Of a stretch of 64,000 nucleotides of DNA, positions 32,148 to 32,757 are shown piece by piece. Under the pieces are notes generated by a model. It saw only the letters and a program-made list of their open reading frames with translations. It was not told where the DNA came from and did not search any database. The stretch lies in IMG/VR virus record IMGVR_UViG_3300047472_000449; one strand, written 5' to 3'. Made by a program: the position numbers and the translations under genes. This DNA is from a virus. Within the stretch, counting starts at the first letter, position 1, and every line of letters begins with the position of its first letter.

Positions 32148-32328
32148 GTTCAAAAGCCTCTCTATATTTTCATCAATAATATATTCAGCTTCTGGTCTCT
32201 GGCAAGCTGTTGCATGACTTTTGCTCTTGATGCATTTAATCGAACAAATAATTGTCAAATGTATTGACATGACCGCGACGCCTCGCTATACTTACCCCAT
32301 CGAAACGAGATTCTTGGAGAATTTCAGA

Positions 32329-32478
32329 ATGTTCAACATCATGCTGATCGGCATGACACTCTGCGAGGCGCGTCCCGAAACGCGTAATCGAGAAACAGGT
32401 GTTGTCATGACCGGCGCCATAACCGTCGGCGCCAAGGTGCGCTCACTGAGAGAGCGATTACTGCTCGGGGCGGCTTAG
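32329..32478 (+). CDS. Small peptide, repeat unit C (MFNIMLIGMT...VGAKVRSLRERLLLGAA)
   Basis: GGAGA RBS, promoter 32264-32292, homologous to the peptides at 33838 and 34145. Confidence 0.6.
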   Translation: MFNIMLIGMTLCEARPETRNRETGVVMTGAITVGAKVRSLRERLLLGAA

Positions 32479-32757
32479 TTTTCGGGAACTGCCGCCCCGC
32501 CCAAAACCCCAACCTCAGACTAATTATCATGGAACAGTTGCACTGGCTGTCGCTCGGAACGGTGGGATCATTTCGGATCACATTGGTGCCGGTTTACTCC
32601 GCTGATAAGGCGGAAGGTAGCGCGATCAGAATGCCAGTGCGAACGGTATGCGTACCTTTCCGGGGAAGAACCGGATGCTTGGGCGGGTGGCGAGAGCGCC
32701 GTCCGCCCCGATGATGTAAGCAAAAGCCCCCGCTCGGTAACCGACTGGGGGCTTTTG
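32460..32757 (+). ncRNA. Diverged copy C of a structured RNA motif, with terminator
   Basis: Shares CGCTCGG, CCGCTGA..GCGGA, CAGRRTGCCA, ACGGTWTGCGTACC and a GGAAG-loop hairpin with copies A/B; terminator 32721-32757. Confidence 0.55.

What the first reader, a model, noticed from the sequence alone, without database searches (positions are those of the whole stretch)
32253..32757. Third, diverged copy of the peptide-RNA module with its own promoter and terminator
Seen: 1.5 kb upstream the same architecture recurs. It has a promoter (32264/32287), an AACGAGATTCTTGGAGA leader, an MF..LIGMT...AK...RL..GA peptide, a GGGGCGG..CCGCCCC hairpin, the conserved blocks CGCTCGG, CCGCTGA..GCGGA, AGCG, CAGAATGCCA, ACGGTATGCGTACC and CCGG-GGAAGAA-CCGG, and a CAAAAGCCCC...GGGGCTTTTGTG terminator like that of unit B. 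CGCT/AGCG complementarity is retained in all three copies, suggesting a long-range stem or pseudoknot. Retention of the core blocks despite strong divergence argues for function rather than recent duplication.
Basis: partly seen in the sequence, partly recalled or inferred. Interest (0 to 1): 0.75.

Follow-up and report, generated by a model that had tools for sequence, protein, structure and literature searches.

The report
Diverged third copy of phage-type RNA
The stretch is a real, expressed and strongly conserved third copy of a small "start-codon plus folded RNA" gene on a giant plasmid-like replicon; its two sister copies belong to an uncatalogued RNA family of Pseudomonas prophages, but this copy has lost that family's invariant hairpin loop, so it probably does a modified job that is still unknown.

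Summary

- **Copy C is a true paralogue of units A/B.** A model built from A+B alone finds it as the only other hit in 128 kb (26.8 bits, E 5e-7).
- **A/B belong to a wider family.** It is absent from Rfam 15, occurs in 32 IMG/VR phage contigs and 5 of 401 Pseudomonas genomes, and has covariation support. An earlier follow-up on A/B reported this family; I reproduced it. Its hallmark is an SD plus a 2-4-codon mini-ORF, then the invariant hairpin CCGA[CGARAGAAUA]UCGG.
- **Copy C fails the wider family test.** A model built from the phage members alone finds A and B (E about 1e-11 to 1e-10) but not C. C keeps the architecture but has a different loop.
- **Copy C is nevertheless maintained and expressed.** Its ORF product is 98-100% identical in six further contigs where the adjacent lipoprotein is only 70-73% identical. 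Two metatranscriptomes hold contigs covering just the RNA units.

Function is unknown. My best guess is a ribosome-loaded regulatory RNA with changed partner specificity.

The parts
32264..32292 (+). Sigma-70 promoter of copy C (TTGACA-17-TATACT)
   Evidence: matches 11 of 12 positions. The translated upstream ORFs of relatives show the sequence is invariant from the -10 box onward, while the spacer varies.
32299..32328 (+). 5' leader with conserved AACGAGATTC (32304-13) and SD GGAGA (32316-20)
   Evidence: invariant in A, B and C. RNA contigs of two studies begin at 32316/32317 (a weak hint of a 5' end).
32329..32478 (+). 49-codon ORF (MF...RLLLGAA). It contains hairpin P0 (32428-32 / 32439-43), and its stop lies in the loop of P1.
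   Evidence: All indels relative to A/B are multiples of 3. The product differs by at most one residue in six further contigs.
32466..32499 (+). Hairpin P1 (9 bp) enclosing the stop codon
   Evidence: covaries with A/B (U-A/C-G, G.U/G-C).
32534..32550 (+). P3-equivalent hairpin ACAG[9 nt]CUGU, directly before CGCUC
   Evidence: Assigned by homology with P3 of the phage family. Inspection only for C.
32551..32586 (+). CGCUC plus central hairpin GGAACGG[UGGGAUCAUU]UCGGAUC, then GG. This is the counterpart of the family's invariant CCGA[CGARAGAAUA]UCGG. An alternative local fold is GUGGGAUC/GAUCACAU (32562-69 / 32576-83).
   Evidence: The loop has the same length (10 nt) but a different sequence. 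Natural variant 32559 A>U repairs a mismatch in either fold.
32598..32614 (+). Hairpin P7 UCCGC[7]GCGGA
   Evidence: the stem differs completely between copies (A CCACUG/CAGUGG, B CCGCUGA/UCAGCGG).
32622..32675 (+). 3' domain: small hairpin GCG[AUCAGAA]UGC, P8 GGUA[UGCG]UACC (32645-56), and P9 UCCGG[GGAAGAA]CCGGA (32659-75)
   Evidence: This is the part of C that matches A/B best. The P9 stems covary and the GGAAG loop is conserved.
32681..32708 (+). C-specific 12-bp hairpin P10, whose arms repeat the P1 arm sequences
   Evidence: It is absent from A/B, and a relative diverges from here on (loose end at 32665).
32722..32756 (+). Intrinsic terminator of copy C
   Evidence: An RNA contig stops about 9 nt past 32711.
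32795..33752 (+). Lipoprotein gene (32795-33529) and a 2-TM mini-protein gene (33536-33752). Neither has a promoter of its own, so transcription can only arrive through C's terminator.
   Evidence: no promoter-like site on the + strand between 32292 and 33773.
33773..34453 (+). Sister units A (ORF 33838-33957, core 33916-34112) and B (ORF 34145-34234, core 34220-34416). They share one promoter (33773-33801) and one terminator (about 34419-34453).
   Evidence: One RNA contig spans 33832-34388.

Best explanation
Copy C is a functional, strongly diverged paralogue of units A/B. A/B are plasmid-borne members of an uncatalogued structured-RNA family that otherwise sits in regulatory leader regions of Pseudomonas (pro)phages.

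**Shown**
- C is a free-standing transcription unit with a strong sigma-70 promoter.
- It carries a conserved SD/AUG and a 49-codon ORF whose stop lies in the loop of hairpin P1.
- A chain of hairpins follows (P3, central hairpin with a 10-nt loop, P7, P8, P9, P10), ending in an intrinsic terminator.
- It is conserved more strongly than its neighbouring genes.
- RNA contigs in two metatranscriptomes match it as a discrete stretch.

**Inferred mechanism**
- The universal feature of the family is a ribosome start site placed just 5' of the fold, so a ribosome is loaded on the nascent RNA.
- In C it translates as far as P1. This protects the 5' part and times the folding of the 3' domain.
- The folded domain presents conserved loops as a docking surface for a partner from the transcription/translation apparatus, either a protein or the ribosome/RNAP itself.
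- On this replicon the module has become an autonomous, abundant RNA acting beyond its own transcript.
- C has replaced the family's invariant apical loop (CGARAGAAUA becomes UGGGAUCAUU), so it most likely serves a changed partner or specificity.
- As a side effect, its terminator sets how much transcription reaches the promoter-less lipoprotein operon downstream.

The confidence given is for the whole statement. That C is a real, maintained and expressed paralogue I hold at about 0.9; the inferred mechanism at about 0.35.
For: - **Homology to A/B:** R2 hit at 26.8 bits, E 5e-7, the only extra hit in the window. Shuffle controls give z 3.8-7.1 in separate segments.
- **Architecture:** the helices shared by the three copies have covarying stems.
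- **Wider family:**
  - 31 IMG/VR contigs carry the fixed-loop pattern; L366 turned up only in the loop-free scan, giving 32, and 5 of 401 Pseudomonas genomes also have it.
  - On 33 sequences, 97.4% of cells are paired, with 71 double-change cells vs 21.9 in shuffles (0/500). Slid controls give 23-41% paired.
  - All but L341 of the 33 distinct homologues printed have an SD plus a 2-4-codon ORF.
  - No Rfam family matches.
- **Selection on C:** the ORF product is 98-100% identical in six more contigs where the lipoprotein is 70-73% identical. Of the listed stem variants, 8 of 9 are structure-preserving on my first helix model.
- **Expression:** RNA contigs of two studies cover 32316-32711 and 33832-34417 only, at word depth up to 83.
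- **Stand-alone units:** the best two promoters of the region plus terminators. Nothing lies downstream of B on the same strand.
Against: - No partner, target or phenotype is known, so the mechanism is inference.
- C gets no score against the phage-only model R3. It lacks the loop that varies at only two of its ten positions in the 36 phage copies counted, so it may have lost the ancestral activity.
- In phages the module lies inside long leaders without terminators. That favours a cis role.
- The RNA evidence comes from assembled contigs of relatives, not reads. It cannot give ends, strand or level, and poor cover of the more diverged flanks could partly reflect the 80% likeness cut-off.
- The ORF might encode a functional 49-aa protein.
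Confidence: 0.45

Rival explanations
1. Cis-acting leader. The RNA modifies its own transcription complex (put-like processive antitermination, or translation-coupled attenuation), so that only transcripts started at the C promoter pass the terminator into the lipoprotein operon.
For: - The lipoprotein operon has no promoter of its own behind C's terminator.
- Phage homologues lie in long 5' leaders after CI-like repressor or sigma-factor genes. Several have a canonical boxA (GCTCTTTAACA) about 300 nt upstream, and no terminator separates them from the next genes.
Against: - A/B have no sense gene downstream.
- RNA contigs stop at C's terminator and none covers the operon.
- Complementarity between the terminator's 5' arm and upstream segments is no better than shuffles (P about 0.08-0.10).
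- The ORF has no run of regulatory codons, and its stop is 245 nt from the terminator.
- C lacks the family's invariant loop.
Confidence: 0.22
2. The product is the 49-aa protein, either a small regulator or a type-I-toxin-like peptide. The folded 3' part would then be only a stabilising or translation-controlling UTR, as in fold-back mRNAs such as hok.
For: - SD, AUG and reading frame are conserved, and indels are multiples of 3.
- In one relative, 3 of 5 substitutions in the ORF are synonymous.
- The leader is complementary to the central hairpin loop (CGAGAU/AUUUCG), with a C.A to G.U co-change between copies.
Against: - Between A and B the RNA core is 86% identical but the ORF only about 66%.
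- There are only 7 invariant residues among the paralogues.
- There is no transmembrane segment and no antisense promoter.
- Phage homologues have 2-4-codon ORFs.
- No relatives of the peptide exist outside this lineage among 1.84 billion representatives.
- Part of the peptide conservation coincides with RNA hairpin P0.
Confidence: 0.15
3. Copy C is a decaying or neutral duplicate that has lost the family's function, as shown by loss of the invariant loop.
For: No score against the phage-only model. The loop differs at 5 of 10 positions, and the stem has two mismatches.
Against: - C is better conserved than its flanking genes across at least six lineages.
- Its promoter, SD, ORF and terminator are intact.
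- It has the highest RNA word depth of the three units.
- A natural variant repairs a stem mismatch.
Confidence: 0.05

Closest known systems
Units A/B of the same window and their homologues in Pseudomonas (pro)phages. This is an uncatalogued family, reported earlier in this scan for A/B and defined here by alignment A10 and model R3.
   Same: SD plus ORF directly 5' of the fold. The order of elements is the same: P3, CGCU, central hairpin with a 10-nt loop, P7, P8, P9. C shares long identical blocks with A/B in the leader, P1 and the 3' domain.
   Different: C has UGGGAUCAUU instead of the invariant loop CGARAGAAUA, and two mismatches in that stem. It has a 60-nt in-frame insertion in the ORF and an extra hairpin P10. 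It is not detected by the phage-only model. Phage members have 2-4-codon ORFs, a 5' hairpin (CACUG/CAGUG) and no terminator.
HK022 putL/putR RNAs (RNA-only processive antiterminators; established knowledge)
   Same: Phage-type RNA placed between a promoter and a terminator that precedes promoter-less genes. Conserved stem-loops.
   Different: put RNAs are about 70 nt with two stem-loops and no ribosome start site. There is no sequence or model similarity, and the effect on RNA polymerase is untested here. A/B have nothing to antiterminate into.
Lambda bar minigenes (SD, AUG, one sense codon, stop; established knowledge)
   Same: The phage homologues carry a strongly conserved SD plus a 2-4-codon ORF.
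   Different: Copy C's ORF has 49 codons. bar minigenes have no conserved downstream fold. Peptidyl-tRNA drop-off is untested.
ORF-bearing (dual-function) small RNAs such as SgrS/SgrT, RNAIII/hld and P. aeruginosa PhrS
   Same: A free-standing, terminator-ended RNA with a translated short ORF plus a conserved non-coding part.
   Different: No base-pairing target is known. There is no Rfam match. The fold is much larger, and the copies are multiple and diverged.
Leader-peptide systems with long-range pseudoknots (IncB/IncI-alpha repY-repZ) and type I toxin mRNAs (hok)
   Same: A short ORF whose translation would remodel downstream structure. There is a possible pairing between the leader and a hairpin loop.
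   Different: No rep or toxin gene, no antisense RNA promoter, and the peptide is not hydrophobic.

Membership tests
Peptide-RNA module of units A/B (this replicon) | Conserved leader AACGA.ATTC..GGAGA, ATG TTC start, and an ORF ending in or just after hairpin P1 | tested here: met
   Leader+ORF vs B gives z=6.1 against shuffles.
Peptide-RNA module of units A/B (this replicon) | Significant score against a covariance model built from A+B only | tested here: met
   R2: 26.8 bits, E 5.2e-7, full-length, and the only extra hit in 128 kb.
Peptide-RNA module of units A/B (this replicon) | Own sigma-70 promoter and intrinsic terminator | tested here: met
   (matches 11 of 12 promoter positions); terminator at 32722-32756.
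Pseudomonas-phage SD/mini-ORF RNA family (A10/R3) | Ribosome start site plus short ORF immediately 5' of the fold | tested here: met
   C has an SD plus a 49-codon ORF. Phage members have 2-4 codons.
Pseudomonas-phage SD/mini-ORF RNA family (A10/R3) | Invariant hairpin NNNCCGA[CGARAGAAUA]UCGGNNN | tested here: not met
   36 phage copies show only CGA(G/A/C)AGA(A/G)UA. C has GGAACGG[UGGGAUCAUU]UCGGAUC.
Pseudomonas-phage SD/mini-ORF RNA family (A10/R3) | Significant score against a model built from phage members only | tested here: not met
   R3 finds A (36.9 bits) and B (34.9 bits) but not C. With filters off, the best score in 32250-32800 is 1.6 bits and lies elsewhere.
Pseudomonas-phage SD/mini-ORF RNA family (A10/R3) | P3 hairpin abutting GCGCU, and terminal hairpins P8 and P9 | tested here: inconclusive
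   C has hairpins at the equivalent places. They have other loops, and this rests on inspection, not a score.
HK022 put-type antiterminator RNA | Lies between a promoter and a terminator and lets its own transcript read through | not testable with these tools
   The position fits for C. RNA contigs stop at the terminator. Read-through needs an experiment.
Leader-peptide transcription attenuator | Regulatory codon run, with alternative hairpins overlapping a terminator right after the ORF | tested here: not met
   There is no codon run. The terminator is 245 nt from the stop. Antiterminator complementarity is no better than shuffles.
Type I toxin-antitoxin | Hydrophobic membrane peptide and an overlapping antisense RNA gene | tested here: not met
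   The peptide is mostly charged after residue 12. There is no promoter-like site on the minus strand within the unit.
Csr/Rsm-sequestering RNA | Excess of GGA motifs | tested here: not met
   9 GGA observed vs 10.5 expected in C; A and B are likewise not enriched.
Any Rfam 15 family (including tRNA, tmRNA and rRNA pieces) | Match at or near the gathering score | tested here: not met
   ARAGORN finds none.

The most novel reading that the evidence does not exclude
The family is a new class of ribosome-engaging regulatory RNA. A start site and mini-ORF park a ribosome next to an invariant hairpin, controlling transcription-translation coupling or terminator passage without a dedicated phage protein. 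A giant plasmid-like replicon has turned it into free-standing RNAs and evolved a paralogue (copy C) with a re-targeted loop.
Probability: 0.15. Interest if true: 0.85.

Novelty: new variant of a known kind. Interest (0 to 1): 0.6.

Why it matters
- Copy C shows which parts of an uncatalogued phage/plasmid RNA family can change while the gene stays expressed and under selection. The start site, the order of hairpins and the 3' domain are kept. The otherwise invariant apical loop is replaced.
- That makes the loop the obvious candidate for the specificity determinant. It also gives a natural "loop-swap" pair (A/B versus C) for experiments.
- The family itself is widespread in Pseudomonas prophage regulatory regions, is well supported by covariation, and is absent from Rfam. 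Learning its role would fill a gap in how these phages, and giant plasmids that borrow from them, control gene expression.

Tried and rejected
**Searches that found nothing**
- BLAST (near and distant) of the region against PLSDB and INPHARED: no match.
- DNA patterns built on positions invariant in A, B and C returned only chance hits, checked by BLAST and model R1. This covered genome, viral and metagenome collections. Those patterns required C-compatible letters that the real homologues lack.
- Model R1 (A+B+C) found nothing in 150 Pseudomonas genomes, 150 Pseudomonadaceae genomes or four roughly 1-Mb Pseudomonas plasmids. Its weak hits lie inside coding genes.
- Lipoprotein relatives were not found in viral or metagenome contigs, nor in 401 Pseudomonas genomes.

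**Hypotheses tested and dropped**
- Peptide family outside this lineage: none.
- Rsm/Csr sponge: GGA motifs are not enriched.
- Attenuator-type pairing with the terminator: not significant.
- My first long-range P4/P5 helix model for the core was superseded by the local hairpins that covary in the phage homologues (vs 109, 119).
- Loop-variant scan in phages: one real variant (A to G) and six chance hits in genes.
- The weak R3 hit at 63285-63340 lies in a coding frame.

**Caveats**
- Lack of RNA cover over the lipoprotein genes is not used as evidence of silence.

Full report
**The stretch itself.**
- A TTGACA-17-TATACT promoter lies at 32264-32292. The consensus scan ranks it second in 31300-35800; only unit A's promoter (33773-33801, a perfect 12 of 12 consensus match) scores higher.
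- The leader AACGAGATTCTTGGAGA (32304-20) supplies an SD 8 nt before ATG 32329.
- The ORF has 49 codons. Its TAG stop (32476-78) sits in the loop of a 9-bp G+C-rich hairpin (P1).
- A chain of hairpins follows. An intrinsic terminator (32722-56) closes the unit.
- The whole RNA folds far better than shuffles (-203 kcal/mol, z -6.4).
- The upstream gene is divergent. The downstream lipoprotein gene (32795-33529) and a small membrane-protein gene have no promoter-like site of their own.

**Is it really a copy of A/B?** Yes.
- A covariance model built from the cores of A and B alone (R2) finds C full-length at 26.8 bits, E 5.2e-7. There is no other hit up to E=10 in the 64-kb window.
- Local alignment of C against A/B beats 300 dinucleotide shuffles in non-overlapping parts: leader+ORF z 6.1, core vs A z 7.1.
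- The three copies share the order of helices. The stems differ in sequence but remain paired: P1, P7 and P9 clearly, P8 partly.
- The ORFs differ by indels of 3 and 60 nt.
- Differences between paralogues show little codon periodicity, and only 7 residues are invariant.

**What the window is.**
- The DNA is from a rhizosphere metagenome.
- Its RNR beta subunit is 75-84% identical to Pseudomonas proteins.
- No whole genome is held.

**Expression and selection.**
- *Expression.*
  - Laying contigs of two metatranscriptome runs from different studies gave RNA contigs covering only 32316-32711 and 33832-34417. None covers the genes between or beside them.
  - Two contigs from different studies end at 32316/32317, with no loose end at those ends. 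One contig joins A to B.
  - These are contigs of 90-95% identical relatives, so they show presence, not ends or levels.
- *Conservation relative to neighbours.*
  - A DNA relative (run X12) is 95% identical over C and 98% over B. It is 83-92% identical over the genes between them.
  - C-type ORF products from six further contigs differ from the window's by 0-1 residue. The lipoproteins on two of those contigs are 73% and 70% identical.
  - Mis-called longer ORFs show that conservation starts at the -10 box.
- *Variants.* The variant table lists 40 of 169; I mapped 27 that fall in the three cores.
  - 18 fall in positions unpaired in my first helix model.
  - Of the 9 in stems, 4 improve a pair, 3 turn a Watson-Crick pair into G.U, 1 leaves a mismatch, and 1 breaks a pair.

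**Finding the wider family.**
- Searches built on letters invariant in A, B and C failed everywhere. That nearly led me to call the family lineage-restricted.
- The A+B-only model R2 then found matches in 3-4 of 151 sampled Pseudomonas genomes.
- From these came the block CGACGANAGAATATCGG. It occurs in 31 IMG/VR contigs and 5 of 401 Pseudomonas genomes. R2 scores them 19-41 bits, the same range as copy C.
- This reproduces the earlier follow-up's statement that the A/B RNA also sits in Pseudomonas prophages after a ribosome start site.
- All but one (L341) of the 33 distinct homologues printed have an SD, an ATG, one to three more codons and a stop, e.g. ATG AAG CGC TAA, ATG AAG TAA, ATG TGG AAG TAA.
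- After the mini-ORF come a variable hairpin, hairpin P3, GCGCU, the hairpin NNNCCGA[CGARAGAAUA]UCGGNNN, CGGAG(A/U)GCG, variable hairpins, P8, and P9 GCCGG[..GUAA]CCGGC.
- On 33 sequences the five helices are 97.4% paired. They have 71 double-change cells vs 21.9 in shuffles (0/500), and 23-41% pairing when slid.
- Rfam 15 has no family for them.
- *Genomic context of the phage copies.*
  - Neighbours are CI-like repressors (L325, L348) or a phage sigma factor (L349) upstream, and unknown phage genes downstream.
  - Several loci have a canonical boxA about 300 nt upstream, and some have further copies of the P9-type hairpin.
  - Two loci checked have no terminator after the RNA.

**Copy C against the wider family.**
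- A model built from the 33 phage sequences alone (R3) finds unit A (36.9 bits, E 1.9e-11) and unit B (34.9 bits, E 9.1e-11). It finds nothing at copy C.
- With filters off, the best score in 32250-32800 is 1.6 bits, and it lies elsewhere in that range.
- The reason is visible. Where the family has CCGA[CGARAGAAUA]UCGG, C has GGAACGG[UGGGAUCAUU]UCGGAUC. The loop length is the same, 5 of 10 loop letters match, and the stem has two mismatches. One mismatch is repaired by the natural variant 32559 A>U.
- A scan that left the loop free found only one real phage variant, a single A to G change. The loop is therefore near-invariant outside C.
- C's P8 and P9 resemble A/B, not the phage versions.
C is a paralogue of A/B one step further from the family, not an ordinary member.

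**The CGCT/AGCG proposal.** Both motifs are present in all copies and in the phage homologues. In the family alignment, RNAalifold pairs GC.CU with GG...GC directly 3' of the central hairpin. All these pairs are invariant, so neither pairing can be confirmed.

**Mechanism.**
- *What is shown:* a conserved, expressed, free-standing RNA with a translatable 5' ORF and a covariation-supported fold.
- *What is inferred:*
  - A ribosome start site is the one feature common to all members, while the ORF's length and sequence are free. Ribosome loading, rather than the peptide, therefore seems to matter.
  - The near-invariant loop looks like a docking site.
  - On this replicon the modules have their own strong promoters and terminators, and A/B have nothing downstream. 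I therefore favour an autonomous RNA acting on a partner from the expression machinery, with C re-targeted.
- *Main rival:* a cis role, fitting the phage context and the promoter-less operon behind C's terminator.
- *Tests that did not help:* GGA enrichment, terminator/antiterminator complementarity and leader-loop pairing (suggestive only).

**Limits.**
- All three model builds were used.
- RNA evidence is from contigs only.

Noticed in passing
window 11609-11746 (-): Rfam match to sraL (an Hfq-binding sRNA of enterobacteria) above the gathering score: 47.5 bits vs 39, E 2.8e-7. This is unexpected on a Pseudomonas-type replicon.
   Followed up: no
window 32675-32719 and 34107-34172 (+): In C and A the P9 loop GGAAGA(A/G) is followed 4-5 nt later by an ATG. 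This opens a second mini-ORF: 14 codons in C, ending just before the terminator, and 21 codons in A, overlapping B's SD and start. B has no such ATG.
   Followed up: no
window 32466-32499 and 32681-32710: P10 of copy C repeats the arm sequences of P1 (CGGGGCGG / CCGCCCCG). The two hairpins could therefore swap partners and close the whole core in one long-range helix.
   Followed up: partly
L325 1196-1210; also L332, L334, L351, L354: A canonical boxA (GCTCTTTAACA) lies about 300 nt upstream of the RNA module in several prophages. This suggests Nus-factor-dependent antitermination in the same leader.
   Followed up: no
L333, L337, L338, L340, L343, L349, L350, L353 (upstream of the module): Long inverted repeats of the type GCUGCAUCGGAAUGUCGG...CCGACAUUCCAAUGCAGC lie just 5' of the module, and the same motif begins again 3' of it in other loci. 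Extra copies of the GCGCCGGA..GUAACCGGC hairpin lie upstream in L326, L330, L336, L345, L346 and L356. These phage leaders look like arrays of RNA modules.
   Followed up: no
L339 10451-10528 (+): Proteo-phage-1 RNA (RF03044, 73.9 bits) is present in the same phage contig. It is unrelated to the module.
   Followed up: no
window 29940-30428 (+) and 35727-36386 (-): A SocA/Panacea-domain protein and an AlkB-type 2OG-Fe(II) dioxygenase flank the RNA region. The stretch 34469-35660 (-) encodes three small membrane proteins that converge on B's terminator.
   Followed up: no
window 34231-34234: In a metatranscriptome relative of unit B, a 1-nt deletion plus a substitution turn GTC TAA into GTT TAG. 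The ORF therefore still ends at the same place in the P1 loop.
   Followed up: partly
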